From the NCBI GenBank assembly GCA_001769385.1, contig MEPB01000006.1, positions 24,182 to 88,181 of the forward strand: DNA of 64,000 nt. Direction: 5' to 3'. Made by a program: the position numbers and the translations under genes. This document shows, piece by piece, positions 25,854 to 64,000 of the stretch (its first letter is position 1; each line of letters begins with the position of its first letter). The notes under the pieces are model-generated. The model worked only from the letters and a program-made list of their open reading frames with translations, had not been told where the DNA came from and ran no database searches. This DNA comes from Bacteroidetes bacterium RIFCSPLOWO2_12_FULL_35_15 (GTDB lineage: Bacteria; Bacteroidota; Bacteroidia; 2-12-FULL-35-15).

Positions 25854-26159
25854 CTATGTAAATATTAATCGTTTATTTTCTTTGATAATTTTTGATTCAA
25901 AAGGAAATCCATTTTCAGGGACCTGCTGGATCTGATCCATCAAGGCGCCCGAACCGGTAAATACAACATGATATGCTGCACCAATCATAATTTGTAAATG
26001 CAAACACTTTCCATTGCTTTTATCCTTTGCGTATTTTGATTCTACAATCCGGAAAGCGTGCACCATTATTTTATTATTCAGGATGTTATCCATTTCTATT
26101 TTGGTTCCGATAAAAGATTTTGAAGCAGTTTCGATACCGAATTCGCTAAACTTTTTCAT
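25854..26159 (-). CDS. Hypothetical protein.
   Basis: 101-aa ORF directly downstream of the RT. Confidence 0.35.
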   Translation of the reverse strand: MKKFSEFGIETASKSFIGTKIEMDNILNNKIMVHAFRIVESKYAKDKSNGKCLHLQIMIGAAYHVVFTGSGALMDQIQQVPENGFPFESKIIKENKRLIFT

Positions 26160-27105
26160 TTGCTATTTTCTTTTTTAGATTAATACAATTGGCGTGATTT
26201 AACCATCCATTATAGGATGCTAATGATTGCCGGTTTTTGTTTTTGGATATCATCCGGAAACAGTTTTGTTTTATTCGCTTCCTTAATCGAACATGTGTGT
26301 GGTAAAATACATAACCAACAAAATCAACTCCGCGATATTCAACCGGAAATACCTGGTAGTTTTTTTTAACTGTTAATTTTAAATGTTCCTGCATGTATTT
26401 TTTTATATCAGCAAGGATGGCGTGTAAATAGGGTTTATTATCAGAAAGGATCACAATATCATCAGCATACCGGAAATAATACTTCACTGCTTTATCTTCT
26501 TTTATCCAGTGATCGAGATAGGTGAGATAGAAATTTGCAAAATATTGACTTAAATAATTTCCAATTGGTAGTCCCGGTGCGCTATCAATAATTTCATCAA
26601 GCAAAATCAATAAATCAACATCCTTTATTTTTTTTCGAAGCATGTATTTTAAAATATCATGATTCACATTCGGATAAAACTTCGTTACGTCAAGTTTTAA
26701 GCAATATTTTGTTCCCTGCTTATCAACTAATGCTTTTTTGAATGAACGTACGGCTGCATGTATTCCTTTCCCTTTTATACAGCTATATGTATCCGCAGTA
26801 AATGTTGAAACAAAAATCTTTTCCATTACATTCATAATCGCATGATGAACAATTCGATCAGGAAAGTATGGCAAACAAAATATTTCGCGTGGCTTAGGAT
26901 CTGTAATCATAAAAGTTTTATACTCGGATGTTTTATAGGTTTTGTTTTTCAGCGATTCATGAAGCTGTAGTATTTTTTCTTCACGATTCTTATCAAATAG
27001 CTGAACACCGTATTGATGTTTTTTGCCTTTTCTGGCATTTGCATCAGCAGCATATAAATTTTCAATGCTGATGATCTTATCGTATATGTTTCCTGTTCTT
27101 TTCAT
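26146..27105 (-). CDS. Diversity-generating-retroelement-type reverse transcriptase. The likely true start is Met at 27105; the ORF track extends it to 27309 across the TR-like repeat.
   Basis: N-terminal MKRTGNIYDKIISIENLYAADANARKGK, the catalytic FRYADDIVIL, and the DGR-diagnostic LPIGNYLSQYF (I/LGxxxSQ in place of the group II QG motif). About 320 aa and no maturase or endonuclease domain. Confidence 0.75.
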   Translation of the reverse strand: MKRTGNIYDKIISIENLYAADANARKGKKHQYGVQLFDKNREEKILQLHESLKNKTYKTSEYKTFMITDPKPREIFCLPYFPDRIVHHAIMNVMEKIFVSTFTADTYSCIKGKGIHAAVRSFKKALVDKQGTKYCLKLDVTKFYPNVNHDILKYMLRKKIKDVDLLILLDEIIDSAPGLPIGNYLSQYFANFYLTYLDHWIKEDKAVKYYFRYADDIVILSDNKPYLHAILADIKKYMQEHLKLTVKKNYQVFPVEYRGVDFVGYVFYHTHVRLRKRIKQNCFRMISKNKNRQSLASYNGWLNHANCINLKKKIANEKV

Positions 27106-27215
27106 TCCTTTGCTTTCACGGTCGTTTTCGTTTTCACTACCAACGCCCAATCTTTTAAACTTTATTTTTTGCCCTGTTGGCAAGGTTTGCATTGTTATTA
27201 AATTATTCCCAGCAT

Positions 27216-27284
27216 AGGTGGGAGCCGCAATCCGTACCCGTGTGCCAACCATCGTAATTCGAGTACGAGAAGCCGAAGCCCGAC
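27216..27284 (-). repeat. Copy A of a 69-bp repeat, the DGR template-repeat (TR) candidate. It lies in a non-coding context 5' of the RT.
   Basis: aggtgggagccgcaatccgtacccgtgtgccaaccatcgtaattcgagtacgagaagccgaagcccga. Its flanks are unique and its 3' (sense) end differs from copies B and C. Confidence 0.55.
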
Positions 27285-27321
27285 ACATCAAACAGCTCAT
27301 CCAATGCACAACCCAATTTCA

Positions 27322-27696
27322 TTACATTAAATAATAATCAATGTATAGTTGTTTAAATTGCTCTACCGCATATAAGCATAAATCACTTGATTTAAAGCAA
27401 AGGCGGGAGCCGCAATACGTAAGCGTGCTCCAACCAGCGTAAGCCGAGTCCGAGACGCCGAAGCCCGATGGCTTTTCGTTAGAGGCATCTACTTCAAACC
27501 ATGGGAAGTATTTCCATTCATTTTTATTATTCCAGTTTGGTTCCCATCCTTCATTCAATGCCTGAGTGATGATGATAAGTTTATAATGGGATAACAAAGC
27601 TTTCTGATGCTTTTCAGGAAGCGCACTTACATCAGGTAATGTTTCAGAAGTGTTTAATGCTTTGCACGCATCTTCAAATGTTTTGATTTTGTTCAT
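27322..27696 (-). CDS. DGR variable target protein 2 (small; C-terminal variable region).
   Basis: Paralogue of 27704..28189 (IKTFEDAC, NEGWEPNWNN..EWKYFPWFE). Its C-terminal ...PSGFGVSDSAYAGWSTLTYCGSRLCF is encoded by repeat copy B. Confidence 0.6.
   Translation of the reverse strand: MNKIKTFEDACKALNTSETLPDVSALPEKHQKALLSHYKLIIITQALNEGWEPNWNNKNEWKYFPWFEVDASNEKPSGFGVSDSAYAGWSTLTYCGSRLCFKSSDLCLYAVEQFKQLYIDYYLM
27401..27469 (-). repeat. Repeat copy B, the variable-repeat (VR) candidate at the 3' end of target 2.
   Basis: aggcgggagccgcaatacgtaagcgtgctccaaccagcgtaagccgagtccgagacgccgaagcccga. Confidence 0.6.
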
Positions 27697-27703
27697 TTGT
27701 TTA

Positions 27704-28189
27704 TTATTTGATTGTTAAAAATTGATTGTATAAGTCGATGAATTGTGTCCCGGCATAAATGGCTAACTCTTTATTTTTAAAGCAAAGGCGGGAGCCGCAA
27801 GTCGAATGCGTGAACCAAATACCGTAATCCGAGTACGAGAAGCCGAAGCCCGACTTGTTTGCTTCAAACCAAGGGTAATATTTATATTCACTGGAGTTGT
27901 TCCAATCCGGCTTCCACCCTTCGTTCAATGATCTATTGATGATTGAAATTTTCAGAAATGCTTGCGCAGCCAATAATTCTTCATCAACTCCACTATAATT
28001 CAATAATATTGACTGGCTTTCTGTAGTTCCAACTTCATCACATGCATCTTCAAATGTTTTTATTCGATCCATAATGTTTTGTGAAAGGATCTCTTTGCCG
28101 ATTAAATTTTCAAGCAAAGATTTTCCGCTTTTGTCAGCGGATCTGTATGCTTTTAAGGCATTTGATTTTTTAATGTTGATTGTTCCCAT
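27704..28189 (-). CDS. DGR variable target protein 1 (small; C-terminal variable region).
   Basis: Its C-terminal ...KSGFGFSYSDYGIWFTHSTCGSRLCF is encoded by repeat copy C. Confidence 0.6.
   Translation of the reverse strand: MGTINIKKSNALKAYRSADKSGKSLLENLIGKEILSQNIMDRIKTFEDACDEVGTTESQSILLNYSGVDEELLAAQAFLKISIINRSLNEGWKPDWNNSSEYKYYPWFEANKSGFGFSYSDYGIWFTHSTCGSRLCFKNKELAIYAGTQFIDLYNQFLTIK
27786..27854 (-). repeat. Repeat copy C, the VR candidate at the 3' end of target 1.
   Basis: aggcgggagccgcaagtcgaatgcgtgaaccaaataccgtaatccgagtacgagaagccgaagcccga. Confidence 0.6.
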
Positions 28190-34381: not shown

Positions 34382-37300
34382 TTATTTTACTACTAATCGT
34401 TTATGTATTATTTCGTTTTTACTTGTTGCTGTTACCATATAAACACCTGAAGACAGTCTTGTTAAAGGATCTATTGCGGTAATAGTTTGGTCAGTGGTTT
34501 TTGTAATAATTTTAGAATAAACCTCTTGCCCTGTTGCATCATAAAGAACAACCAAAATTTCTTCATTTTCATTTCCTGTTAACAAAATATTAAATCCATT
34601 TCCATCGTTTGGATTTGGAAATATATTTACAGAAGTTCCTGCTTTCTTATAATCTATTGAAACTATATTGGAGTAATTCCTATTCCCATCATAATCTGTT
34701 TGTTTTAATCTGTAATAAGAAGTCCCGGCATAAGGATTTAAATCCACCTCTGAATAATACAATGTGTTTGTACTTGTTCCTGCTCCATCAATGGTTATGA
34801 CAGATTCAAAATTGGCTGCGTCAATACTTTTTTCTATTGTGAAGTAATCATTGTTTTTTTCAGAAGCTGTACTCCAGGCTAAATCAACTGTTTTTGATGA
34901 ATTTAATTTTGCATCAAAAGTTAATAATTTTATTGGCAAAGGGTTTAATCCAATACGTGATCCAAATGTAAACGGACTGAATGAGTTCATAACATCAGAT
35001 GTTATATTTCCAGGACTTGCTGCAGTAATAGATGATTGCCCTGCATTTTCCCATGCACTACCATTCCAGTGGGCAACATTCAAATCGGAAGAGTAATTAT
35101 TTATAAAGCTTCTGGCAGCATCTTCCCAAAATAATTGTACCGGCACATCTGAAGTTCCTGTGTTTCTATCACATGTCCAATATTCAACTATACTTACATT
35201 ATTTAATACCGGTGCCGGAATGGTTGCCATAGATAAAAAGTCAACATAGGGTGTGTCAAAATATTGAGCAGTAAATGCGTCTGTTGCATCTGAAGGGGTC
35301 CCTATTCCCAATCGAGCCCAGGTACTGCCTTTCCCAATTGGAAATACAAAGGCTTGGTTTCCAATTTTTTTCATTGGCCCATTTACAAAACTTGTGTTTG
35401 TTCCCGCTGTAGAGGTGGCGTTGTCTGTTAGTGTTAAAATATTTGTTGATGTTGTGTTTATTATTCCATCGGTCATTGTCAAGCTTCCGGTAACCGTAAG
35501 AGGAATTAAAAGTGTTGTTGTTGATCCAGGTTTGTTTTGTTCAAGATGATCAAAAGTTATGGAACCTAATGTACTGTTAATTGTAGCTGGTGTACTACTA
35601 AAAAAAGTAACTACTTGTCCTGTGGTTGTTAAATTCCCATTCAAAATAAGATTACCTCCAATAGTTAGTGGTTTATTATAAGTTAAATCAGCTCCTGTTG
35701 CAATAGTTAGGTTATAATAATTACCTATACCGGTTCCATCAACAACAACAGGATTCCCTGTAAATGTTACCGTAGAAGTATTTCCGTTAAATACACCATT
35801 GTTTGTAAAGTTCCCTGCAATTGTATGACTAAGACTTGTTCCTGCATTAAAAGTTGAACCTGTTCCTATTAATACATCCTGAAGATTCCAGGAGTTAGGT
35901 GGAGTGATGCCGGTTGTATTGGTATTTGATATTTCTAAAAAATTGAAAACAGGGGCATTATCCAAAATGGTAATGGGCTCTGTTCCTCCAAATTCAACTT
36001 CTCCTGTACTTAAAAAACTTCCTCCAACGTCATCAAGCCGGATAGTGGCTTCAGCAGAAAACGGGGGCTGAGGCATAAAATAGATTTTGTAATTACTTAT
36101 TACATTTCCATTATTAGTAAAATTCCCATAAAATGTATGTTTTAAAGAACCACCATTAAAAGTAGCTCCTGCTCCTACTGTGAAAGAACCGTAAACAGAC
36201 CAAGGTTCTGATGCTGTTATTCCTGCTGTGTTATTAATGTTTACAGTAGCAAATATAGGAGGAGTATTACTGTTTAGAATGGGAGCAACAGTTCCATTAA
36301 AATTAATTACTCCGGTTGAAGTGGATGTCATTGCGTTTATTAACTGCAATGTTTGGACTCTTGTTCCAGTAAATGTTACCGCACCACTGCTAAACAAAGT
36401 TCCCTTATTTGTGCAATCACCATTAAAACTAACAGTAGATGATCCCCAATTAACTGAGCTTAAAGTATCCACAAAAAAATCACCTGAAATGGATATGTTA
36501 GAATTTAAAAAAGTATATGAACCGCCTGAAGCTACCAGGTTATCCAGAGTAGCATTTCCCGAAAATGTTTTAGATATGCCACTTAATATAAGTGTGCTTT
36601 TATAAGTAGAATAAGTACCATTATTTGTTAAATTTCCATATACAGTGACAATGTTTGAATCACAATAAATTGTTGCACCTGAGTTTATTGTAAGATCCCC
36701 TTTAATCAGTACAGTTCGCAAATGAAAATGTTTTTTGTTACTTCCACCATTGGATATGAGTAGATTTCCAAATTCAGTTGCTAAAATATGCTGGTGCATT
36801 GTACCGTTAAATTCGACCGTACTTGATGCATGCATAACATTGGTTATAAAGTTGGTTGGAAAATTAGTTGCTCCTCCCACTTTCAGGTAGGAAGCAGAAT
36901 CAAGCATAAATGTACCACCGGGATTGCTTCTGTTTGCATTATACATTGCCAGGTCCATTGTTCCTTTACTGATCAGCAGGTCGCTGTTTATTATTAAATT
37001 TCCACTAAGAGATAAGGAACCTGAGGGTTTGTTTACAATTAGAATATTAAATGTATTCGCATTTACAAATTGATCGGTTGTTCCATTAAAATTTACAGAT
37101 CCGGAGTTGGTTGTAAATGTTCCGTTGTTCGTCCAGCTTCCCATTAAATTAATCCTGGCTCCGAATTCAATGAAATTGGTATTGGAACCAATTGAAATAT
37201 TTCCGGCAACTGTCAGTGTATCAGAAATTGCCAGTTCACCTCCTATGCCGGTGCTTAAATTTCCATTAATAACTGTCGGGAAATTAATTTTTGCCCGTTC

Positions 37301-40300
37301 AGTAGACTTTTCGATTGATAAATTATTATAGATAACAGGTGCTACAATTTGCCTTTCTGTTCCCGAATAAATAACAGTACCCGACCCTGCCGTAAAGCTT
37401 CCTGAAGTATAGTTGTAAGCTCCATTTATTGTAAGTGTCCCGTTTCCTGTAAAATTAATCGAACCGGTCGCACTTTGGTTTAGATCATTATTAATCATAA
37501 CAGAGCCGTTTCCAATTTTCAATTGAATATCATGGCCATTCGTTCCATCACTTAAATTAATGTTTGTTCCTATTATTAATGCATTTGAGGAGACATCAAT
37601 CACATGCGATGCAGGATCAATCCAATTTCCATTCACAGCTCCAAGAATGCTCAGTGAACCACTGATTAAGGTAAGTGTGCTTGCCTGTATACTTCCATAT
37701 TGCAAAACACTAACTGTTCTGGTTGAGCTAATTGTCGGATTATAGATAAAGCCCGTTTGCCCTATTTGTGCCTCATCCGTTGACGTTGGAATTCTGTTTG
37801 CCATTGATTCTCCTGAAATGGTAGTCCAGTTTGCGGCATTTTCCCATGCTGAACTTACAGAACCATTCCAACGGACAACATTTTTTATCCCGGCCAATGT
37901 CCACCTTCCTTCAAGAGCTGAAATTCCGGTTTTTTCTACAAAATTTAAGGCTGTATCTTTTGTAGTATAACCAATACTATCCCAAACATTACTATCCGAA
38001 TTGTAATTAAATTCGTTTAAGTTAGGTTCGTTCACAGCATTCAATTCGTTGTGGTCGTAATGCAGACGCAATGTGGAGGAGCTGAAAGTCCCTGCAGGTA
38101 TTGTAATGTTATATTCCCGGTTAAGACATTCTTGTCCGACATTAAAGTCGGGTACATTTGCAAGAGTTACAACCTCTGTAACAGAAGTCAGAGATACTGA
38201 TGGGTTGATGAATGTAATTGCATTTTGTGCACTTTCAAAATAATAAGCAGTGCCGTCAATAAAAGTATGATTGTGAGTGATTGTACCAATAATAATACCT
38301 GCACCAATGCGTGTGTCTGTAATTGTTACCGCATTAGTTCCTGTCTGTATGGTGCCATTCGTTACTGTTAAATTTGTAACTGTAATATTATTTGACAGTG
38401 TCAAATTAATGAATAAGCTATTTTTATTTACGATAAGATTATTAAATTCGGTTGCTCCCGCTATCGTTGCCGAATTGCCTCCTAACAATTGAATGGTTGA
38501 TGTTCCATCAGTAAAAGTTCCGCTGTTTGTAAAATGGCGATATATGGTATGTGTGAAAGAGGAAGCATCGAATGTCACACCGAAATTAATTGTAAAGTCA
38601 TTGTTAATTATAAGCTCATCAATAGGAGTTTTTATGCCTCCGTTGGAAAGTATAAGGTTGTGATAAGTAGTATTAACAAGTGACTGAGCTGTAGGTGAAT
38701 TATACACCACTGTGTTAGGAATATTTGTAGTTACATTTAATGTCCCGGTTTTAGTGAATACATTAGCAATACATAAAGTTGCATTACTTCCAAGAAGTAC
38801 TGTTTTGGTTGCGTTAATCGTAACATTAAATAAATTTGCTGTTCCCGAAAGAGCTGTAGTTCCATTCATTGTTGTTGTTCCTGCCGTTGCAGTAAAGCTT
38901 CCTGAACTTGCTACAGAAAGATTCGACAATAAAGTATAATTACTTGCTGTTGAAATTGTTCCCAAAATACTTAAAGCAAAAAAAGTAATTGCGCCATTTC
39001 CTGAAATTGTTTTTGTAACACCATTAAAAGTGATTGTTCCTGCACTTGCAGCAAATGAATTATTTACACTAAGGTTCCCGGAAATAGTAATGTTTGATGC
39101 TGTCGTTATGCTGCCTGTAATGATGCAATTATATAATAAAAGACCAGGGCCTGATATTGTTTTTCCTGTTCCCGACATTGTAAGTGAGCCTCCTGTTGAA
39201 TGAATGAAATTTGCGGTAAGGGAGGTACTTATATTCCCGGAGACATTTATGGAAGTATTTCCGGAAGCATTTATTCCTGTGGCTGTGAAAGCAAGATTAT
39301 AGAAATTATTCGTTCCTGTACCACTCAGTACAACATTTGTTCCTGAAAATGTAACTGTGGAAGTGTTTCCATTAAAAGTTCCGGAATTGTTCCAATTGCT
39401 GATGAATTTATGAGTAAATGTCCCTCCATCAAATGTGGATGCAGCATCCAGAACCACGTTCCCGTTTACAGTAATGTTTTGTGCAGCAAAAAATGTAACA
39501 CTTGTACCTGTCCCGACAGTGCTTGTTAAATTTCCTGATATTGTGATTGCCGTGGCAGGCATGGTTTTTACAACAGCTCCTGTAGTGCCGCTAAATGATA
39601 GGTTTCCATAAGCTGCTGCTAAAACAATTTGATTGTTTCCGTAATACTCTACCGTACTGGTAGTGGAAAGGGAAATGGTTGAATAATTGCTTGGGAAAGT
39701 AGTTGTTCCTCCGATTCTAAGTTTAGCGCCAGCAGCAACAATAACTGAACCTCCTGTATTAGTATTGCCTCTGTTAGCAGTGAAAGTTAGTAAATCAAGT
39801 GTCCCGGCATCAATATATATCTTTCCTGAAGAGGAGGAGGAAGAATTTAAAGCAGGTAAATTTCCTGTTAAAGTTTTTGTCATACCCCCGCTAACGTGCA
39901 GATAGCCATATGTTAGGATATTTGTAATGTTTTGGTTTATAACAGAGGATGCGTAGTTTACAGTACTTGTAGCATTTAATGTGATTGTACCTGACAATGA
40001 ATAGTTATTTGTGAAATTTAGTGTTTTGACGAATATGACTCCAGCTGAATTCACCGTTAATGTTGCGTTACCGGACACTAAACAGGAAGCTGTTGGGTCG
40101 AGTGAACCATTGACAGTTAGCATAGTATTGATTGAAATATTGTTTGCTAATGTTACTAAACTTCCCGCATTAATAGCTAATCGTTGAAAAGCCGTTACTC
40201 CGGTAAGGGTTTGTGTTGTTCCCAAAAAAGTCACAACCGCAGTTGCATTGCTTGCAGAGTAGGTGCCTGCATTGTTCCAATTCCCTTTAATTGAAATGGA

Positions 40301-40633
40301 TGTTCCTGCACCTGTATGCAAAATTGTTCCATTGCCACCAATAGTAACATTACCCGAAATAGTAATGTTTTTTGTAACCGTCAATGTGGATACTTTCGTA
40401 CTACTTCCAATAATTAAGGACTTACAATTAACAGGGGTAGTTAATGAAGGTTGAAAAGATCCTGTGAAATTGGCATCCCCAATTATAGCATCAACAGTAG
40501 AATTAGGTATTCCTGCTGTCCAGTTAGAAGGAGAGCTCCAGTTTGTGCTGACAGTACCTTTCCAGGAAGTTTGAGCGGTGATATTACTCATTATCATGAG
40601 TAAAAGCGATATACTATAAATGAACTTTTTCAT
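34382..40633 (-). CDS. Giant secreted repetitive beta-rich surface protein with a T9SS C-terminal sorting domain.
   Basis: N-terminal signal peptide MKKFIYSISLLLMIMSNITAQ, a 2083-aa body made of Gly/Asn/Thr/Ser repeats, and a C-terminal ~80-aa Por/T9SS CTD-like segment (...SGVYMVTATSKNEIIHKRLVVK). Confidence 0.75.
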   Translation of the reverse strand: MKKFIYSISLLLMIMSNITAQTSWKGTVSTNWSSPSNWTAGIPNSTVDAIIGDANFTGSFQPSLTTPVNCKSLIIGSSTKVSTLTVTKNITISGNVTIGGNGTILHTGAGTSISIKGNWNNAGTYSASNATAVVTFLGTTQTLTGVTAFQRLAINAGSLVTLANNISINTMLTVNGSLDPTASCLVSGNATLTVNSAGVIFVKTLNFTNNYSLSGTITLNATSTVNYASSVINQNITNILTYGYLHVSGGMTKTLTGNLPALNSSSSSSGKIYIDAGTLDLLTFTANRGNTNTGGSVIVAAGAKLRIGGTTTFPSNYSTISLSTTSTVEYYGNNQIVLAAAYGNLSFSGTTGAVVKTMPATAITISGNLTSTVGTGTSVTFFAAQNITVNGNVVLDAASTFDGGTFTHKFISNWNNSGTFNGNTSTVTFSGTNVVLSGTGTNNFYNLAFTATGINASGNTSINVSGNISTSLTANFIHSTGGSLTMSGTGKTISGPGLLLYNCIITGSITTASNITISGNLSVNNSFAASAGTITFNGVTKTISGNGAITFFALSILGTISTASNYTLLSNLSVASSGSFTATAGTTTMNGTTALSGTANLFNVTINATKTVLLGSNATLCIANVFTKTGTLNVTTNIPNTVVYNSPTAQSLVNTTYHNLILSNGGIKTPIDELIINNDFTINFGVTFDASSFTHTIYRHFTNSGTFTDGTSTIQLLGGNSATIAGATEFNNLIVNKNSLFINLTLSNNITVTNLTVTNGTIQTGTNAVTITDTRIGAGIIIGTITHNHTFIDGTAYYFESAQNAITFINPSVSLTSVTEVVTLANVPDFNVGQECLNREYNITIPAGTFSSSTLRLHYDHNELNAVNEPNLNEFNYNSDSNVWDSIGYTTKDTALNFVEKTGISALEGRWTLAGIKNVVRWNGSVSSAWENAANWTTISGESMANRIPTSTDEAQIGQTGFIYNPTISSTRTVSVLQYGSIQASTLTLISGSLSILGAVNGNWIDPASHVIDVSSNALIIGTNINLSDGTNGHDIQLKIGNGSVMINNDLNQSATGSINFTGNGTLTINGAYNYTSGSFTAGSGTVIYSGTERQIVAPVIYNNLSIEKSTERAKINFPTVINGNLSTGIGGELAISDTLTVAGNISIGSNTNFIEFGARINLMGSWTNNGTFTTNSGSVNFNGTTDQFVNANTFNILIVNKPSGSLSLSGNLIINSDLLISKGTMDLAMYNANRSNPGGTFMLDSASYLKVGGATNFPTNFITNVMHASSTVEFNGTMHQHILATEFGNLLISNGGSNKKHFHLRTVLIKGDLTINSGATIYCDSNIVTVYGNLTNNGTYSTYKSTLILSGISKTFSGNATLDNLVASGGSYTFLNSNISISGDFFVDTLSSVNWGSSTVSFNGDCTNKGTLFSSGAVTFTGTRVQTLQLINAMTSTSTGVINFNGTVAPILNSNTPPIFATVNINNTAGITASEPWSVYGSFTVGAGATFNGGSLKHTFYGNFTNNGNVISNYKIYFMPQPPFSAEATIRLDDVGGSFLSTGEVEFGGTEPITILDNAPVFNFLEISNTNTTGITPPNSWNLQDVLIGTGSTFNAGTSLSHTIAGNFTNNGVFNGNTSTVTFTGNPVVVDGTGIGNYYNLTIATGADLTYNKPLTIGGNLILNGNLTTTGQVVTFFSSTPATINSTLGSITFDHLEQNKPGSTTTLLIPLTVTGSLTMTDGIINTTSTNILTLTDNATSTAGTNTSFVNGPMKKIGNQAFVFPIGKGSTWARLGIGTPSDATDAFTAQYFDTPYVDFLSMATIPAPVLNNVSIVEYWTCDRNTGTSDVPVQLFWEDAARSFINNYSSDLNVAHWNGSAWENAGQSSITAASPGNITSDVMNSFSPFTFGSRIGLNPLPIKLLTFDAKLNSSKTVDLAWSTASEKNNDYFTIEKSIDAANFESVITIDGAGTSTNTLYYSEVDLNPYAGTSYYRLKQTDYDGNRNYSNIVSIDYKKAGTSVNIFPNPNDGNGFNILLTGNENEEILVVLYDATGQEVYSKIITKTTDQTITAIDPLTRLSSGVYMVTATSKNEIIHKRLVVK

Positions 40634-46679: not shown

Positions 46680-48350
46680 ATGAAAGTAGATAAAATATTA
46701 ATTTCCATTTTCCAGCGTTCCTTCAAATCCATTACAGATGAGATGAGTATTTCGCTGACTAAAACTACACGATCTCCAATTCTTTGTGAAGCGAAGGATT
46801 TTGTAACGGGTCTGTATGATGCAAAAGGACAGATGTTAGAGCAAACAGAGAATCTTCCGATCCTGTCTTTTTCTTTGGGGCCTGTTTGTAAACATCTTTT
46901 AGAAGTATATGGAAAAGAAATTTATCCCGGTGATGTGATTATTCACAATGATGTATTCACCATGGGAAATCAGAATAATGATGTGGCCATTTTCAAACCA
47001 ATATTTTTGGGAGAAACATTAATTGGTTGGTCTGCTGCAAAAGGGCATCAGGCCGATATTGGGGGGGCAGTTCAAGGTGGTTATAATCCAAATGCAACTG
47101 AAGTTTGGCAGGAAGCAATTCGTATTCCGGCAACCAAATTGTACGACAGAGGCAAACTTCGTAAAGATGTTTGGAATCTGATCTTTGCAAACATTCGTTT
47201 GAATATTGTGGAACAGGATATCAAAGCACAGATCGGTGCTTGTACGCTTGGAGAAAGGCGTTTTCAGGCTTTTGTGGAGAAATACGGATTAGAATGTTTT
47301 GAACTGCACAAGCAAGAGTTGTTCAATGCAACTGAAAAAATGATGCGTCAGGAAATAAAAGAAATTCCAAATGGAGTTTATTTTGGCGAAAGTATGGTGT
47401 ATTACGATGGAAAACATCCCGGAAGTAAATTCCCTATTAAGGCAAAAATAACGGTGAAGAATGAGGACATTGAATTTGATTTTTCAAAATCATCACCTCA
47501 AACAACAGGCTTTGTAAATGGAATTTATACATCAACCTGTTCTGCAATAACACTTACTTTCCTTCAAATGGTGAATCCAAATATTCCGCACAACGAAGGA
47601 ATGATCAAGCCTTTAAAATATATTGTACCGGAAGGTACAATTTTGAATGCCCGATATCCGGCCGCAACAACTTTTGGAAATCATTTATGTCCGCAAGTGG
47701 CTGATAGTATTTTTAAAGCATTGTCAAAAGCGGTTCCTACACGTATCACAGCGGGTTGGAATCATTTGCTTTGTTCATTGTTCACAGGAAATCATCCGCG
47801 AACAAATCGCAAATACGTGGACATCTGTTTCCTGGGAATGAAAGGTGGATCAGGTGCAATGTTAGGGGATGACGGGTATGATCACATTGGAATGATAGAT
47901 GCATCGGGTGGTGTGCTTGATCAGGATTATGAAATGTATGAGCAGCAAACTCCGCATTTAATAATGAAACATGAATATCTCTGCGATTCGGCAGGAGCAG
48001 GCAAATGGCGAGGTGGATTGGGAACAGAAACTATAATTAAAGTGGGAGCTAACAATACGAAAATGGTAGTGTTTGGTGATGGTGATGTGGTTCCTGCTTA
48101 TGGATTAAAAGGTGGTAAAGAAAGTATCTTGAATATTCTTGAATTGCGTTACCCGAATGGAAAAAAGAAAAGACCATACAGCAAAGATATTGTGGACGAT
48201 ATTCCTTCCGGAACTATTTATTATCAAGTTGCCGGTGGTGGCGGAGGTTACGGAAATCCAAAAGAAAGAGGAAAAGAGCAAGTGAAGATGGATGTGAAAA
48301 ATGGAATTGTTTCTAAGAAAGTTGCTGAGAAAGTTTATGGAGTAAAATGA
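46680..48350 (+). CDS. hyuB: Hydantoinase B/oxoprolinase family protein.
   Basis: 556 aa, paired with hyuA, with conserved Gly-rich segments (DGYDHIGMIDASGG...). Confidence 0.8.
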   Translation: MKVDKILISIFQRSFKSITDEMSISLTKTTRSPILCEAKDFVTGLYDAKGQMLEQTENLPILSFSLGPVCKHLLEVYGKEIYPGDVIIHNDVFTMGNQNNDVAIFKPIFLGETLIGWSAAKGHQADIGGAVQGGYNPNATEVWQEAIRIPATKLYDRGKLRKDVWNLIFANIRLNIVEQDIKAQIGACTLGERRFQAFVEKYGLECFELHKQELFNATEKMMRQEIKEIPNGVYFGESMVYYDGKHPGSKFPIKAKITVKNEDIEFDFSKSSPQTTGFVNGIYTSTCSAITLTFLQMVNPNIPHNEGMIKPLKYIVPEGTILNARYPAATTFGNHLCPQVADSIFKALSKAVPTRITAGWNHLLCSLFTGNHPRTNRKYVDICFLGMKGGSGAMLGDDGYDHIGMIDASGGVLDQDYEMYEQQTPHLIMKHEYLCDSAGAGKWRGGLGTETIIKVGANNTKMVVFGDGDVVPAYGLKGGKESILNILELRYPNGKKKRPYSKDIVDDIPSGTIYYQVAGGGGGYGNPKERGKEQVKMDVKNGIVSKKVAEKVYGVK

Positions 48351-48351
48351 A

Positions 48352-48453
48352 ATCTACGAAATACGAATGGGTACGAATATACGAAAACGATAAAATGATG
48401 ATCTACGAAATACGCCCTTCGACAAACTCAGGGTGACTACGAATATACGAATG
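48352..48453. repeat. TACGAAT heptamer repeat array (intergenic).
   Basis: ctacgaaatacgaatgggtacgaatatacgaaaacg...atctacgaaatacg...gactacgaatatacgaatg. Confidence 0.7.
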
Positions 48454-49025: not shown

Positions 49026-49439
49026 ATGAGAGTTGTGTTAAAAAAAGAAAATTTGTTATATCCTGAACTATCTTTTCAGGTTGTAGGAGTTTTATTTGAA
49101 GTAAGTAATACATTAGGATATGGCTATCTGGAAAAATATTATCAAAAAGCAATTGCAGCATTACTTAAAAAATCAAATATAAATTTTAAGGAACAGGTTA
49201 AAGTTGAAGTAATAATTGGAGATGAAATTATAGCAGAAGGTCGTGCGGATTTCATAATTGATGAAAAAATTATTTTGGAAATTAAAAAAGGTGATTCATT
49301 CCGGAAAGATAATATTGATCAATTGCACAGTTATTTAAAAATGACCGGAATGGAGCTTGGCATCCTTGCGAATTTTACATCAAAAGGATTACTTTATAAA
49401 AGAATCGTAAATATTCGTAATTCACAAATTCGTAATTAG
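49026..49439 (+). CDS. GxxExxY-family protein.
   Basis: GYGYLEKYY motif; its C-terminal residues and stop are encoded by the ATTCGTAA repeat. Confidence 0.7.
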   Translation: MRVVLKKENLLYPELSFQVVGVLFEVSNTLGYGYLEKYYQKAIAALLKKSNINFKEQVKVEVIIGDEIIAEGRADFIIDEKIILEIKKGDSFRKDNIDQLHSYLKMTGMELGILANFTSKGLLYKRIVNIRNSQIRN

Positions 49440-49546
49440 TAGAACGATGGACTTAAATATTCGTAATTAGTAAATTCGTAATTAGTAGAACGATGGACTT
49501 AAATATTCGTAATTAGTAAATTCGTAATTAGTAGAACGATGGACTT
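49409..49546 (+). repeat. 3 x 46-bp tandem repeat built from ATTCGTAATTAGTA units. Each copy ends in ...agaacgATGGACTT, and the third copy supplies the start codon of the acyl-CoA dehydrogenase.
   Basis: Copies at 49409-49454, 49455-49500 and 49501-49546. Copies 2 and 3 are identical and copy 1 differs at 3 positions. Copies 1 and 2 encode only the mini-ORF MDLNIRN*. Confidence 0.8.
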
Positions 49547-50675: not shown

Positions 50676-50826
50676 CTACGAATTACGAATTAAACGAATT
50701 ACGAATGAGATTTTCCAATTTATCAGATGTTTACGTTAGTATTTCATCTTTATTCGTAATTCGGCCATTCGTAATTAGTAGTGTAATATATTCACTTTTA
50801 TTTGCAGTTTGTTCATTCGTAATAAA
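50676..50826. repeat. TACGAAT/ATTCGTA inverted heptamer array (intergenic).
   Basis: ctacgaattacgaattaaacgaattacgaatgag ... ttattcgtaattcggccattcgtaattagt ... cattcgtaata. Confidence 0.7.
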
Positions 50827-50837
50827 TAGGTAAAAAT

Positions 50838-52238
50838 ATGAGTAATATAAAATCATACGGAATCGCATTACCTCATTTCAGAATCGAGGATACTATTCTT
50901 CACCCCAAAGGAAAGAAAGGCATAACAAAGTCAGTTTGTTTTTCTGATGAAGATTTGATCACACTTGCTTTTCAGGCAGCATCAAACTGTTTGGATGTCA
51001 GTTCGAGCGGAGTCGAGAACTCAAATCTCAAATCTAATATTGATGCAATTCTCTTTGCCTCATCAACTCCGGTTTTTAAAAATCGGTATCATGCTTCTTT
51101 TCTTGCTGATCAATTAGGTTTACTTCATGGCATTTTAGCGCTTGATCTTATAAATTCAGCCCGAAGTGGAACGGATGCCCTGTTATTGGCAAATACATTA
51201 ATTGATTTCGGTAAATACAAAAATATTTTGGTGCTTGCTTCTGATGTTCATTTTCCTTCAATCGGAAAAGAGCTTTCAACTCCCTTCGGTCATGCTGCCT
51301 GTGCAATTTTGATAGGTAATGAAAAAGGTATTGCAGAATTTACTTCAGCCAAATCATACAGTTCTTCACTGGCTGAAGAATTTTCTTACAAAGGAAATAC
51401 TATTCAGTATGATCCTCGATTTAGCCGTGATGCAGGATTTAAAGCAAACCTGACTTCTGCACTTAAAAGTTTTGCGTCTAACCCAAAATCGATTGATGCT
51501 GTAATTTTAAATTCTCTTTATGCTCGAATGGCAGGAGGGATTTTTGCGAAAGCTGGTTTTGAAGAAACACAATTTGCAATGGACACCCTTTCTTCCAAAC
51601 TAGGAAATACAGGTGCTGTTCATGCGTTACTGCTGTTAGTGAATGAAATTGAAAACGAAAAGAAAACCATCTTACTTGCAGATTACACAAACGGAACAAA
51701 CTTTTTTGAAATAAAAAATCAAGGTTCCAATTCTGAAAAAGTACTGCAAGAGCAATTGAAAAATTTCGAATTAATTAATTCTTATCAGGATTATTTATTG
51801 TTGCGCAAAACAGGAAATTTCAATTCAGCAAAATACGAAACCAAAGAAATGTTTTCTTCTGAAATGATGCAGGAACGTGAGAAAGACACCTTGCAATATC
51901 TGAAAGGTTTGAAATGCGATAAGTGCGGAACCATTTATTATCTGAAATCTACTCGATGTAAAAATTGTAAAGAAGAAAATTTTTCAGATGTTCAATTATC
52001 AAAAACTGGAATTGTTTATACCTTAACAAGCGAACATTATTTTCCAAGTTCATTCCCTCCAATTCATATGTTGGTAATTGATCTGGATGGTGGGGGAAGG
52101 GTTACAGTTCAACAAACTGATACCATGTATCCTGAAAAAAATAAAATAAAGATCGGTTCGAAAGTGAAATTGGTTTTACGAAAAATGATTGAGAATGATA
52201 TGAAACCAAATTATTTCTGGAAGGCTGTAAATCTATGA
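50838..52238 (+). CDS. HMG-CoA-synthase-like (thiolase-fold) protein fused to a C-terminal DUF35-type Zn-ribbon/OB-fold domain.
   Basis: N-terminal SYGIALPHFRIEDT and a C-terminal zinc ribbon CDKCGTIYYLKSTRCKNCKEE. Confidence 0.5.
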   Translation: MSNIKSYGIALPHFRIEDTILHPKGKKGITKSVCFSDEDLITLAFQAASNCLDVSSSGVENSNLKSNIDAILFASSTPVFKNRYHASFLADQLGLLHGILALDLINSARSGTDALLLANTLIDFGKYKNILVLASDVHFPSIGKELSTPFGHAACAILIGNEKGIAEFTSAKSYSSSLAEEFSYKGNTIQYDPRFSRDAGFKANLTSALKSFASNPKSIDAVILNSLYARMAGGIFAKAGFEETQFAMDTLSSKLGNTGAVHALLLLVNEIENEKKTILLADYTNGTNFFEIKNQGSNSEKVLQEQLKNFELINSYQDYLLLRKTGNFNSAKYETKEMFSSEMMQEREKDTLQYLKGLKCDKCGTIYYLKSTRCKNCKEENFSDVQLSKTGIVYTLTSEHYFPSSFPPIHMLVIDLDGGGRVTVQQTDTMYPEKNKIKIGSKVKLVLRKMIENDMKPNYFWKAVNL

Positions 52239-52240
52239 AA

Positions 52241-52297
52241 TACGAATTGATACGAATAGAATCTACGAATACGAATTAGTACGAATATACGAATAGA
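52241..52297. repeat. TACGAAT heptamer array (intergenic).
   Basis: aaatacgaattgatacgaatagaatctacgaatacgaattagtacgaatatacgaatag. Confidence 0.7.
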
Positions 52298-61898: not shown

Positions 61899-64000
61899 AT
61901 GAGTAAAAAATTAAATGTAATTGGAACACCAATACCGAAGATAGATGCAGGTATTCGTATCACGGGAAAAGCGGTTTATGGTCAGGATGTAAAACTACCG
62001 GGAATGCTTCATGGTGCTATTCTTCGTGCTGAGTATCCATGCGCGGAATTTACAATTGATGTTTCTGCTGCAAGAAAATTGCCCGGAGTTATTGCTGTTA
62101 TTACAGCGGATGATATTGATTGCAATAACATTAGCTATAAAAAGGATCATCCGATATTAAAAAAAGGAGAAGTAAATTGTATTCGTGATGAAATAGCAGC
62201 TGTTGCCGCTGAAAGTAAAGAGATCGCTGAAAGAGCCATTAAACTTATCAAAGTAAAGTACAAAGAAAAGAAAGGGATTTATGATCCTTTCGATGCATTA
62301 AAGCCTAATGCTCCTCTTGTAAATAAATATTTGAAGGATAGTAAATTCGCGAAAAACATTTCTGATATTTTCTTCTACGAACATGGAAATCTGGAAGAAC
62401 AAAAAAAGAAAAGCGCTGTTATTATCAGCAAACGTTTCGTATTACCTCGCGTAACACATTGTTGTATGGCAACAAGCAACATCACCGCTGATTATTCCTC
62501 TGTCACCAAACGCTTAACATTATATAGTTCAACACAAGTTCCGTTTTTATATCAACGCGACATGGCACATGCTTTGAAAATGAATGCCTCCGATATTCGT
62601 GTTATTCAAGTGGTGATCGGTGGCGGATTTGGAAGTAAATTAGATATGTATCCTTTTGAACCAATTGCTGCTATTCTTTCTATAAAAACAGGAAAGCCTG
62701 TTCAGATAATTTTTGACCGTGAAGAGGAATTTATTGCTTCACCTACGAGGCAGAATATGGTGATTGACTTAATAGCAGGGGCTGATAAAAATGGGAAATT
62801 CACTTTTCGTGATGTTACTATTGTAAAAGATAATGGTGCATTCACTTCCTGGGGCGCAACCACTCCTTTTGTAATGATGCAGACTTTTTCATCACTCTAT
62901 CAAATGCCTGCTTGTCGGTTTGAATCAAAAGCCGTTTATACAAATAATATTTCAGCAGGTTCTTTCCGTGGTTATGGGAATCCACAAGCTGCTTTCGCTA
63001 TCGAAAGTTGTATTGATCTGATGGCCGATAAATTAGGAATGGATAAAGCAGAAATTCGTTTGCTTAATGCAAATTATGCAGGTGAAATAACAGGACAAGG
63101 AATGCACTACGACACTTGCGGACATATAGAAGCCTTGAAAACCGTTATTGAAAAATCGGATTTACGAAATACAAATAAAGAAACTTTACGAAATACTAAT
63201 AAATACGAATCTACGAATAAAGAAAAAGAAACAGTCAACACAGATTCGTATATTCGAAAAAATCCGTATTTCGTAGATAATGTAGATAGATATAAGCGGG
63301 GAGTGGGAATTGCTTCGATGATGCATGTTGGGGGTGGTGCTAAAATTTATCGATCAGATGGTTGCGGAACTACCTTAAAATTGGATGATTACGGACATCT
63401 GACTTTAATTACAGGCTCGAGCGAGATCGGTCAGGGCTCCGAAACTGTTTTGGCAATGATGGCTTCAGAGGAACTTACAATTCCAATGAATAAAATAAAA
63501 GTTATTAATACGGATACGGATGTAAAGCCTTGGGATGTTGGGGTGCATGCATCCCGTACCAGTTTTGTAGCAGGGAATTCGGTGTTAGGTGCTGTTAAAA
63601 AATTAAAAGAAAAATTAAATCAAAAAGCTGCTGTACTTTTAAAATGTACGATTGAGAATTTGATCTATGAAAATGAAGAAATAAAAAATAGTGACGGAAG
63701 TAATTCTGTTCGAATAGAAAAAGTGGTTCGTGAAATGCATTTTGGAGGACAAAATGAGCTGTGTACGGTAAACCATTTTTATGAACCAACAAGTGATTTT
63801 CAGGATAAACAGTTCAAAGGAAATGTTTCAGGTACTTATGCATTTGCTGCGCAGTCAGCTGAAGTGGAAGTGGATACCTATACCGGAAATATTAAGGTAT
63901 TAAATATTCATGTTGCACAAGATGTGGGTAAAGTATTGAATCCACTAAACATCATGGGACAAATTGAAGGAGGTGTTTTGACTGGAGTGGGTTATGGAAT
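61899..64000 (+). CDS. Molybdopterin-binding large subunit of a xanthine dehydrogenase/aldehyde oxidase-family enzyme (3' end beyond the window). It contains an in-frame TACGAAT-repeat insertion.
   Basis: The product begins MSKKLNVIGTPIPKIDAGIRITGKAVYGQDVKLPGMLHGAILRAEYP. Typical MoCo-enzyme segments: RGYGNPQA, GSSEIGQG and VHASRTSFVAG. There is no stop through 64000. Confidence 0.85.
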   Translation, partial: MSKKLNVIGTPIPKIDAGIRITGKAVYGQDVKLPGMLHGAILRAEYPCAEFTIDVSAARKLPGVIAVITADDIDCNNISYKKDHPILKKGEVNCIRDEIAAVAAESKEIAERAIKLIKVKYKEKKGIYDPFDALKPNAPLVNKYLKDSKFAKNISDIFFYEHGNLEEQKKKSAVIISKRFVLPRVTHCCMATSNITADYSSVTKRLTLYSSTQVPFLYQRDMAHALKMNASDIRVIQVVIGGGFGSKLDMYPFEPIAAILSIKTGKPVQIIFDREEEFIASPTRQNMVIDLIAGADKNGKFTFRDVTIVKDNGAFTSWGATTPFVMMQTFSSLYQMPACRFESKAVYTNNISAGSFRGYGNPQAAFAIESCIDLMADKLGMDKAEIRLLNANYAGEITGQGMHYDTCGHIEALKTVIEKSDLRNTNKETLRNTNKYESTNKEKETVNTDSYIRKNPYFVDNVDRYKRGVGIASMMHVGGGAKIYRSDGCGTTLKLDDYGHLTLITGSSEIGQGSETVLAMMASEELTIPMNKIKVINTDTDVKPWDVGVHASRTSFVAGNSVLGAVKKLKEKLNQKAAVLLKCTIENLIYENEEIKNSDGSNSVRIEKVVREMHFGGQNELCTVNHFYEPTSDFQDKQFKGNVSGTYAFAAQSAEVEVDTYTGNIKVLNIHVAQDVGKVLNPLNIMGQIEGGVLTGVGYG
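63162..63275 (+). repeat. Intragenic TACGAAT/ATTCGTA heptamer array, in frame.
   Basis: gatttacgaaatacaaataaagaaactttacgaaatactaataaatacgaatctacgaataaag...cagattcgtatattcgaaaaaatccgtatttcgtag. It translates in the gene frame as ...SDLRNTNKETLRNTNKYESTNKEKETVNTDSYIRKNPYFVDNV... Confidence 0.7.

What the first reader, a model, noticed from the sequence alone, without database searches (positions are those of the whole stretch)
27216..27284. The TR candidate does not obey the adenine-only rule. It is either a drifted/inactive DGR or the real template lies elsewhere.
I took copy A as TR and compared it on the sense (minus) strand. Of about 16 mismatched columns against the two VRs, only about 8 fall on A positions of copy A. 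The rest fall on G, C or T positions, for example TR ggt versus VR att, TR cac versus ttc/agc, and TR gat versus act/tat. The union of variable positions is fully consistent with an unseen Asn-rich template: (a)tc tcg (a)ac tcg aat tac aat aat tgg aac acg aat acg aat tgc ggc tcc cac. So copy A may be a decayed template, a third degenerate VR, or the element may use a second template not obvious in the window. In the target frame copy A contains a 39-codon mini-ORF with a stop right after the repeat: MKLGCALDELFDVSGFGFSYSNYDGWHTGTDCGSHLCWE*.
Basis: seen in the sequence. Interest (0 to 1): 0.6.

Follow-up and report, generated by a model that had tools for sequence, protein, structure and literature searches.

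The report
Retroelement template mutated by itself
The odd repeat is the real template of a prophage diversity-generating retroelement, but about half of its key adenines were overwritten in the retroelement's own mutation style, which explains the broken adenine-only rule and shows how such elements can decay.

Summary
Copy A (27211-27283, minus strand) differs from the two variable repeats at 16 columns, and only 8 of these are adenines in copy A.

Copy A is nevertheless the true template repeat (TR). It lies in the conserved TR position upstream of the reverse transcriptase (RT), with the TR-type 3' end and an intact structured spacer.

The closest relative with DNA (L038, RT 82% identical) has identical TR flanks. 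Copy A differs from it at 9 positions, and all 9 are adenines there (P about 2e-6). Both window variable repeats fit the L038-type template (27 of 28 mismatches on A).

So the TR itself was adenine-mutagenised after the variable repeats were last written. The extent, 9 of 20 adenines, fits a single round. The most likely route is misdirected retrohoming of its own cDNA.

No fourth copy was found in the window or the two fetched flanks, which together appear to hold the whole prophage. A second, independent case (L024) exists. Among 42 related templates, only these two break the rule.

This is a known kind of element caught in a rarely documented failure state.

The parts
27704..28189 (-). Target gene 2 (161 aa), a small, mostly helical protein of unknown function that carries VR C
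   Evidence: ORF. phrog_11581, no Pfam family. About 870 homologues. AF2 model with pLDDT 84 and no PDB fold match.
27781..27853 (-). Variable repeat C
   Evidence: Repeat family D2. 13 of 13 mismatches against the L038-type TR lie on A, but only 7 of 13 against copy A.
27322..27696 (-). Target gene 1 (124 aa), a paralogue of target 2 that carries VR B
   Evidence: 48% identical to the 161-aa paralogue.
27396..27468 (-). Variable repeat B
   Evidence: 14 of 15 mismatches against the L038-type TR lie on A, but only 6 of 12 against copy A.
27211..27283 (-). Template repeat (copy A), eroded. Nine former adenines are now G, T or C at window positions 27274, 27265, 27250, 27249, 27244, 27238, 27237, 27232 and 27226.
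   Evidence: Flanks are identical to the L038 TR, and the 9 differences all fall on L038-TR adenines.
27206..27220 (-). TR-type 3' end (IMH*-like): CAC CTA TGC TGG GAA. Both VRs have CGC CTT TGC TTT AAA here.
   Evidence: The same TR/VR distinction is seen in relatives.
27106..27205 (-). TR-RT spacer with two conserved helices (27170-27182 and 27119-27149), all 12 predicted pairs formed in the window
   Evidence: RNAalifold on 18 loci: 10 of 12 pairs show compensatory changes. Window coordinates.
26146..27105 (-). Reverse transcriptase (319 aa), intact, with IGNYLSQ and YADD motifs
   Evidence: RVT_1 at 4e-18. Best PDB hit 8ub7_A at 4.7e-44 over the full length. Sequence.
25854..26159 (-). orf101, a basic 101-aa protein overlapping the RT stop. 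Candidate accessory factor; no Avd was found in the cassette.

Best explanation
The locus is a diversity-generating retroelement (DGR) in a prophage of a Bacteroidota genome. On the minus strand the order is target 2 (VR C), target 1 (VR B), TR (copy A), structured spacer, RT, orf101.

Copy A is the element's own, orthologous template repeat. Its ancestor looked like the TR still carried by relative L038: TTC AGC TTC TCG AAC TCG AAT TAC GAT AAT TGG AAC ACG AAT ACG AAT TGC AGC. That ancestral TR templated VRs B and C by ordinary adenine-specific mutagenic retrohoming.

Later, an adenine-mutagenised copy of the template was written into the TR DNA itself. The most likely route is misdirected retrohoming or recombination of the element's own cDNA into the TR. 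This converted 9 of its 20 adenines (7 A>G, 1 A>T, 1 A>C), about what one round of DGR reverse transcription produces.

Neither VR has been rewritten since, so they now disagree with the TR at G, C and T positions. The RT, spacer and orf101 look intact, so the element could still fire. Its coding repertoire would be about 2.5e5 rather than about 5e10 peptide variants.

What is shown:
- TR identity and orthology.
- Adenine-only erosion.
- VRs fitting the ancestral template.
- No other copy found.
- Recurrence of the same state in L024.

What is inferred:
- That the donor was cDNA rather than a VR.
- The order of events.

Confidence that copy A is the true TR and was eroded specifically at adenines is about 0.9. 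Confidence in the whole statement, including the cDNA route, is 0.6.
For: 1. Position and flanks. Copy A lies about 100 nt upstream of the RT start, as the TR does in the related loci that carry a repeat. The sequence around it is nearly identical to L038: the 35 nt upstream and the roughly 50 nt of spacer downstream each show a single mismatch. The cassette as a whole is only 79% identical.
2. The TR-type 3' end CACCTATGCTGGGAA, against CGCCTTTGCTTTAAA in the VRs, is shared with relatives.
3. Copy A differs from the L038 TR at 9 of 73 positions, all adenines in L038. P = 1.7e-6 given 20 A in 73 nt. L029 and more distant TRs also have AAY at those codons.
4. Window VRs against the L038-type TR: 27 of 28 mismatches on A. 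Against copy A: 13 of 25.
5. Relatives obey the rule. 40 of 42 distinct TRs have 87-100% of mismatches on A.
6. Independent replicate. The L024 TR differs from the sister TR L025 at 17 sites, all adenines (P = 2e-12). The L024 VR fits the L025 TR at 22 of 22 mismatches but its own TR at only 10 of 21.
7. The extent of change, 9/20 = 45% here and 17/31 = 55% in L024, matches the roughly 50% substitution per cDNA reported for bRT-Avd, with 0-0.5% at other bases (PMC6182149).
8. The changed bases do not match either extant VR (4/9 for B, 3/9 for C; read). In L024 the match is 6/17. A VR rewritten after the event would carry the TR's new non-A bases, so neither resident VR can be the donor.
9. Both AGC>GGC changes fit the clade's mutational bias. 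Adenines followed by G become G in 91% of 197 VR cells.
10. No fourth copy was found in the window or in the fetched flanks L033/L034/L036/L037.
11. The same TR and VRs appear in assemblies from different runs and assemblers, so this is not an assembly artefact.
Against: - There is no direct evidence of cDNA integration into the TR. Only consensus assemblies were available, with no read-level data.
- The window's IMH*-like end is the same as in L038, whose TR is intact. Nothing in the sequence explains why homing was misdirected here, so it would have to be a rare stochastic event.
- The ancestor is inferred from relatives whose cassettes are only 79% identical, not from a near-identical genome.
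- A donor VR that has since been lost, or one from a co-infecting phage, cannot be excluded.
- The MAG outside the window and about 17 kb of flanks could not be searched for a trans-acting template.
Confidence: 0.6

Rival explanations
1. The TR was overwritten by homologous recombination or gene conversion from a variable repeat (VR to TR), not by free cDNA. The donor would be a third VR that is now lost, or the VR of a co-infecting related phage.
For: - TR and VR share 73 nt at 82-84% identity, with exact stretches of up to 24 nt.
- Some relatives carry three targets (L005, L009, L029, L040), so a lost third VR is conceivable.
- Copy A has G at both AGC sites, as every VR does.
Against: - The changed bases match neither resident VR (4/9 and 3/9, read; L024 6/17).
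- The resident VRs cannot have been rewritten afterwards without inheriting the TR's new bases.
- The closest relative L038 also has only two targets.
- The G at AG sites is explained by a clade-wide mutational bias.
- Copy A has 45% of its adenines changed, compared with 65-80% in the VRs of the window, L038 and L029.
Confidence: 0.22
2. Copy A is not the template. It is a third, degenerate VR or a truncated target gene, and the working template lies elsewhere and acts in trans.
For: - Copy A sits in an ORF-like frame with a 39-codon mini-ORF.
- Trans-acting TRs are documented in other bacteria (PMC10907252).
- The rest of the MAG could not be searched.
Against: - Copy A has TR-specific flanks on both sides, orthologous to the TRs of L038 and L029, including the CTGGGAA tail and the structured spacer.
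- There is no homology to the target genes outside the 73 nt.
- The mini-ORF is not conserved.
- No further copy was found in the window, up to the integrase on the left, or in the host flank on the right.
- Per Wu et al., remote elements are not expected for phage-borne DGRs.
Confidence: 0.04
3. Copy A is the working template as it stands, and the non-A mismatches come from non-canonical (non-adenine) mutagenesis by this RT or from errors during integration.
For: Non-A-to-N differences are reported in 23% of DGRs, with up to 11 in one target, and have been attributed to such causes (PMC5758913).
Against: - The non-A mismatches fall only on positions that are adenines in the orthologous TRs.
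- Forty related elements with similar RTs show 87-100% A specificity.
- The VRs fit the ancestral template almost perfectly.
Confidence: 0.03
4. This is ordinary neutral drift of a dead DGR, or an assembly chimera between TR and VR reads.
For: - The VRs are identical in all assemblies, so there is no sign of current activity.
- Repeats are hard to assemble.
Against: - Drift would hit all bases and the flanks. Here 9 of 9 changes are on A, and there are 0 changes at 53 non-A positions of the core.
- The RT, spacer helices and orf101 are intact.
- The identical sequence was recovered from different runs and assemblers: MEGAHIT k141, a scaffold assembly and Logan.
- TR and VR share only 11 nt at the 3' junction, which is short for the k-mer lengths I assume these assemblers use.
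Confidence: 0.03

Closest known systems
Bordetella phage BPP-1 DGR (prototype: mtd-VR, avd, TR, brt)
   Same: It has an RT homologous over its full length to the best PDB hit, a 328-aa RT that I believe is bRT. A TR lies just upstream of the RT. The VR sits in the 3' part of the target ORF. Relatives show A-specific TR-to-VR differences concentrated in AAY codons. The TR and VR have distinct 3' ends (IMH*/IMH-like). The TR-RT spacer is structured.
   Different: No Avd is present; a conserved basic OB-like 101-aa ORF follows the RT instead. There are two tandem paralogous targets. The targets are small helical proteins, not C-type-lectin tail fibres. No GC-rich hairpin was found after the VRs. 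The TR itself carries the mutagenesis signature.
Avd-less 'lineage 3' DGRs of Bacteroides, their relatives and crAss-like phages (Wu et al. 2018, PMC5758913; crAssphage LMMB, PMC7290462)
   Same: The host is Bacteroidota. The architecture is target-VR-TR-RT without avd. The RT gene is 65-67% identical in DNA to crAss-like phage RT genes.
   Different: Lineage 3 VRs are described as the CLec3 class in tail-collar fibre proteins. Here the targets belong to an uncharacterised family of 124-161 aa (phrog_11581). The small ORF after the LMMB RT is unrelated to orf101. Formal placement in the lineage-3 RT tree was not tested.
Engineered BPP-1 constructs in which the IMH determines the direction of transfer (Doulatov et al. 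2004, as summarised in PMC3240598 and PMC5703328)
   Same: They establish the principle that the TR is protected from being a recipient only by its IMH* end, so a TR can in principle become a target of mutagenic homing. My recollection, not verified here, is that replacing IMH* by IMH made the TR itself variable.
   Different: Here the event is natural and the IMH*-like end is unaltered. It apparently happened once and was captured in a prophage lineage. It also happened independently in L024.
DGRs with 'non-A-to-N' TR/VR differences in surveys (Wu et al. 2018), and degenerate DGR loci (Thiohalocapsa PB-PSB1, PMC10907252)
   Same: The operational symptom is the same: VRs that disagree with the nearby TR at non-adenine sites.
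   Different: Those cases were attributed to RT or integration errors, independent mutations, missing machinery or trans templates. Here, comparison with orthologous TRs shows that the template itself changed, specifically at adenines, while the machinery is intact.

Membership tests
Diversity-generating retroelement (DGR) | Reverse transcriptase of the DGR clade | tested here: met
   RVT_1 at 4.4e-18. Best solved-structure hit is 8ub7_A (328 aa) at 4.7e-44 over residues 2-306, against 1e-17 for retron and group II RTs. The IGNYLSQ and YADD motifs are visible in the sequence. That these motifs are DGR hallmarks, and that 8ub7 is bRT, rests on my own knowledge. No RT phylogeny was built.
Diversity-generating retroelement (DGR) | VR differs from the cognate TR only (or almost only) at TR adenines | tested here: not met
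   With the present copy A, 13 of 25 mismatch cells are on A. This is the anomaly under study. By this operational criterion the locus would be rejected by standard DGR finders.
Diversity-generating retroelement (DGR) | VRs carry the signature of adenine-specific mutagenesis from the element's template lineage | tested here: met
   Against the orthologous L038-type TR, 27 of 28 mismatches are on A, at codon positions 1-2 of AAY codons. 40 of 42 related TRs meet the rule directly.
Diversity-generating retroelement (DGR) | TR is non-coding and adjacent to the RT; VR lies in the 3' part of a target ORF | tested here: met
   The TR is about 100 nt upstream of the RT start. The VRs encode residues about 77-100 of the 124-aa target and about 113-136 of the 161-aa target. 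The mini-ORF over the TR is not conserved.
Diversity-generating retroelement (DGR) | IMH at the VR 3' end differs from IMH* at the TR 3' end | tested here: met
   The TR has CACCTATGCTGGGAA and both VRs have CGCCTTTGCTTTAAA. The same pattern occurs in relatives. Function was not tested.
Diversity-generating retroelement (DGR) | Accessory protein Avd | tested here: not met
   There is no Pfam or NCBIfam hit for the cassette neighbours. The conserved neighbour orf101 models as a beta-rich, OB-like fold rather than a four-helix bundle. Avd is absent from 26% of DGRs and from lineage 3, so it is not strictly defining. The rest of the window was not scanned for Avd.
Diversity-generating retroelement (DGR) | Hairpin/cruciform immediately downstream of the VR (BPP-1 type) | tested here: not met
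   No GC-rich inverted repeat is shared by the regions downstream of VR B and VR C. In BPP-1 this element enhances homing but is not strictly required (PMC12875486).
Diversity-generating retroelement (DGR) | Ongoing diversification (VR variants within or between samples) | tested here: inconclusive
   The target proteins form single-member 90% clusters, and the VRs are identical in all assemblies found. Only consensus sequences from related samples were available, with no reads.
C-type-lectin-fold DGR variable proteins | The target adopts a CLec (or Ig) fold that displays the VR | tested here: not met
   [not shown]

The most novel reading that the evidence does not exclude
Misdirected retrohoming into the template ('TR self-mutagenesis') may be a recurrent natural decay route of DGRs. 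It is seen twice independently among 42 related templates here. It may account for a share of the 'non-A-to-N' DGRs that surveys attribute to sloppy RTs or discard.

In addition, this Bacteroidota phage clade may represent an undescribed DGR design. It has no Avd, a conserved basic OB-like protein after the RT, tandem small helical targets of no known fold placed next to replication genes, and near-deterministic A>G at 5'-AG-3' template sites.
Probability: 0.45. Interest if true: 0.6.

Novelty: new member of a known kind. Interest (0 to 1): 0.5.

Why it matters
DGRs depend on an invariant master copy. How well that copy is protected in nature, and how DGRs die, is poorly documented.

This locus and L024 give sequence-level evidence that the template can be hit by the element's own adenine mutagenesis. 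The predicted repertoire falls by about five orders of magnitude while all the genes stay intact.

In practical terms, the 'mismatches must be at TR adenines' filter used by DGR finders will miss or misclassify such elements. Comparing a TR with its orthologues can separate template erosion from RT infidelity.

The clade also offers an Avd-less system with a candidate new accessory protein and a new target family for experimental study.

Tried and rejected
- Searched for a fourth copy with the repeat finder, two degenerate patterns allowing 3 mismatches and fuzzy regexes. The fuzzy search covered the window, about 9 kb to its left and about 8 kb to its right. Nothing was found beyond A, B and C.
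- Searched IMG/VR for exact 36-mers of the intact and the eroded TR. There were no hits.
- The closest RT (P0002, 82% identical) had no DNA on file. A genome-contig scan then supplied L038.
- Comparing copy A with a 12-locus family consensus gave only a weak signal (Fisher P = 0.01), because lineage-specific differences blur it. The comparison with L038 was decisive.
- My first automatic survey was contaminated by VR-VR paralogue hits. I redid it with a positional filter.
- Considered a selected VR as donor because copy A has G at the two sites where all VRs have G. I set this aside after finding that AG>GG is a clade-wide bias that includes synonymous sites.
- Pfam, PHROGs and NCBIfam gave no function for the targets or orf101.
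- The small ORF after the crAssphage LMMB RT is unrelated to orf101.
- I could not verify the identity of PDB 8ub7 from the literature tools.
- The supplements of Wu et al. are not held, so I could not test whether their 'CH1' genes correspond to this target family.
- No paper was found that describes natural TR erosion. The searchable library is incomplete.

Full report
**1. What is in the sequence**

The window holds three copies of a 73-nt repeat: A 27211-27283, B 27396-27468 and C 27781-27853. Two degenerate patterns each find exactly these three sites, against zero expected from shuffles.

All the coding is on the minus strand. Reading 5' to 3' on that strand, the order is:
- a 161-aa ORF (27704-28189) containing copy C;
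- a paralogous 124-aa ORF (27322-27696) containing copy B;
- copy A;
- about 100 nt of spacer;
- a 319-aa reverse transcriptase (RT; 26146-27105, Pfam RVT_1 4e-18);
- a 101-aa ORF that overlaps the RT stop.

In the gap-free alignment, 16 columns of the 73 vary. Copy A has an adenine in 8 of them and G, C or T in the other 8.

**2. Copy A is the template repeat, by orthology**

Scans with the RT protein fetched 27 viral, 6 genomic and 34 metagenomic loci. Exact-protein look-ups added several more.

In the relatives that carry a detectable repeat, it sits in the same place, about 100-190 nt upstream of the RT start. One to three further copies lie inside upstream small ORFs that are homologous to the window's two targets.

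The copy next to the RT ends in ...CAC CTA TG in many of the closer relatives, while the copies inside the ORFs there end in ...CGC CTT TG. The window shows the same distinction.

Homology between copy A and B/C stops at the edges of the repeat, whereas B and C continue to be similar as paralogous genes.

The spacer between copy A and the RT folds into two helices. Ten of the 12 predicted pairs show compensatory changes across 18 loci, and all 12 pairs form in the window.

The mini-ORF over copy A is not conserved, because L029 has an in-frame TAA. It is a by-product of the template's origin from coding sequence.

**3. The decisive comparison**

L038 comes from a Bacteroidetes MAG. Its RT is 82% identical and its cassette is 79% identical in DNA over 2430 nt. 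Its TR flanks are nearly identical to those of copy A: about 35 nt upstream and about 50 nt downstream, with one mismatch each.

Copy A differs from it at nine positions:
- AGC>GGC (twice)
- AAC>TAC
- AAT>GGT (twice, two changes each)
- AAC>CAC
- AAT>GAT

All nine are adenines in L038. With 20 A in 73 nt, the chance of that is 1.7e-6. None of the 53 non-A positions differs.

L029 (RT 77% identical) and more distant relatives also have AAY at these codons. The window state is therefore the derived one.

Measured against the L038-type template, VR B has 14 of 15 mismatches on A and VR C has 13 of 13. Against copy A the figures are 6 of 12 and 7 of 13. L038's own two VRs (30 of 31 on A) and L029's three VRs (46 of 47) obey the rule.

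**4. How unusual this is in the clade**

I ran a filtered automatic comparison of the repeat next to the RT with its upstream copies. It gave 42 distinct templates, including the window.

Forty have 87-100% of mismatches on template adenines and a template A content of 20-35%. The window (52% on A; A content 15%) and L024 (48%; 12%) are the only outliers.

L024 is an independent replicate in a different sub-clade. Its TR differs from that of its sister L025 at 17 of 117 positions, all adenines in L025 (P = 2e-12). Its VR fits the L025 TR at 22 of 22 mismatches and the L023 TR at 23 of 23, but fits its own TR at only 10 of 21.

**5. No other template, and not an artefact**

The window lies in a prophage of 'Bacteroidetes bacterium RIFCSPLOWO2_12_FULL_35_15'.
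- An integrase lies about 9 kb to the left of the window start (L033).
- Host genes take over to the right of about 34-41 kb.
- Neither the window nor the extra flanks contain a fourth copy.

The same TR and the same VRs occur in every assembly found: a MEGAHIT assembly (L028, 100% identical), a 156.8-kb scaffold from another assembly, the NCBI MAG, and a Logan assembly of a different run (L079, 100% identical over 6164 nt). An assembly chimera is therefore very unlikely. At consensus level there is also no sign of current VR turnover.

**6. Mechanism**

The change is confined to adenines, it affects 45% of them here and 55% in L024, and it leaves the flanks untouched. This is the signature of DGR reverse transcription. 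For the Bordetella enzyme, about 50% of template adenines are substituted per cDNA, against 0-0.5% at other bases (PMC6182149).

The direction of transfer in DGRs is set by the IMH at the VR 3' end versus IMH* at the TR end (PMC3240598, PMC5703328). A TR is therefore protected only by a few base differences. Here those amount to two differences within the shared stretch, followed by divergent sequence after TGC.

I infer that a mutagenised cDNA was once integrated into the TR DNA, by leaky homing or by recombination.

The alternative is conversion from a VR, which I judge less likely for three reasons:
- The nine new bases match VR B at only 4 sites and VR C at only 3. In L024 the match is 6 of 17.
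- A VR rewritten after the event would carry the new non-A bases, and neither does.
- The closest relative also has only two targets.

One apparent argument for a VR donor is that copy A has G at the two AGC sites where every VR has G. This dissolves on inspection. Across 40 loci, template adenines followed by G are G in the VR in 91% of 197 cells, compared with 23-36% G in other contexts. In the L023-L025 clade, four of the five AG-context sites that are G in all three VRs are synonymous third codon positions (read from the sequences). This points to a mutational bias. It resembles the effect of the base 3' of the adenine, and the slippage model, described for bRT (PMC12875486).

**7. Consequences for the element**

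The RT (IGNYLSQ and YADD motifs present), the spacer and orf101 are intact. The TR retains 11 adenines.

If the element fires again, the VRs would become fixed at Gly (GGT) in two former Asn codons and restricted in two others. The number of encodable peptides drops from about 4.7e10 to about 2.5e5.

Because both VRs still carry states that the present TR cannot encode, the TR hit is the most recent DGR event in this lineage.

**8. Comparison with what is known**

The element works like a DGR and belongs to that family by RT homology, architecture and descent. The best PDB hit is a 328-aa RT, 8ub7_A, at E 4.7e-44, against 1e-17 for retron and group II RTs. However, in its present state it fails the operational criterion of adenine-only TR/VR differences.

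It resembles the Avd-less Bacteroides and crAss-like 'lineage 3' elements in host, architecture and lack of avd. Its targets are different: a family of about 870 small proteins (phrog_11581) with no Pfam family. The AF2 model (pLDDT 84) is mostly helical and has no PDB fold match.

A basic 101-aa protein follows the RT in 18 loci and models as a weakly OB/SSB-like fold.

Surveys report non-A-to-N differences in 23% of DGRs and attribute them to RT or integration errors or to unrelated mutations (PMC5758913). I found no paper describing natural adenine-specific erosion of a TR, but the searchable library is incomplete.

**9. Verdict**

- Observation: confirmed.
It is a decayed template, but the decay is self-inflicted and adenine-specific rather than drift. 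No other template was found.
- Nature of the feature: an ordinary kind of element, a DGR, caught in a rarely documented failure state, with an independent second example.
- Interest: moderate.

Noticed in passing
[not shown]
   Followed up: partly
[not shown]
   Followed up: partly
40 related loci (L001-L075), TR/VR pairs; in the window, the two AGC codons of the ancestral TR (27274, 27226): Template adenines followed by G (5'-AG-3') are G in the VR in 91% of 197 cells and stay A in only 6%. In other contexts G makes up 23-36%. Many of these sites are synonymous third codon positions. This suggests a near-deterministic, slippage-like A>G bias of this RT clade. The counts are not corrected for shared ancestry of sites.
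   Followed up: partly
L024:2948-3064 (TR) versus L025:3264-3380 and L023:3766-3882: This is a second, independent eroded template. Seventeen differences from the sister TR all lie on adenines. The L024 VR matches the sister's TR perfectly at non-A sites but does not match its own TR.
   Followed up: yes
window 27106-27205 (minus strand); alignment A4: The TR-RT spacer forms two helices (27170-27182 and 27119-27149). Ten of the 12 pairs show compensatory changes across 18 loci. It is probably the RT-recruiting and priming RNA structure of this clade. No Rfam search was run.
   Followed up: partly
window 26146-27309 (minus strand): Public gene calls extend the RT to 384 or 387 aa from GTG codons upstream, reading through the TR in another frame. 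This is an annotation artefact. The conserved start is the ATG at 27105.
   Followed up: yes
window 1 to about 33000, plus L033: The DGR lies in a prophage of a Rifle-aquifer Bacteroidetes MAG. The integrase is about 9 kb left of the window start. Tail and tape-measure genes, primase and an HNH gene are present. Host genes follow to the right: a 2083-aa T9SS-sorted protein at 34382-40633, then asparaginase, hydantoinase and acyl-CoA genes. The exact att sites were not determined.
   Followed up: partly
window 48345-48413, 49404-49546, 50743-50838, 52224-52293, 63157-63217: Families of AT-rich repeats are built on ATTCGTA/TACGAAT motifs, including three tandem 46-nt units at 49404-49546. They lie within and between host metabolic genes (the 49404-49546 units overlap ORF ends). 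Function unknown.
   Followed up: no
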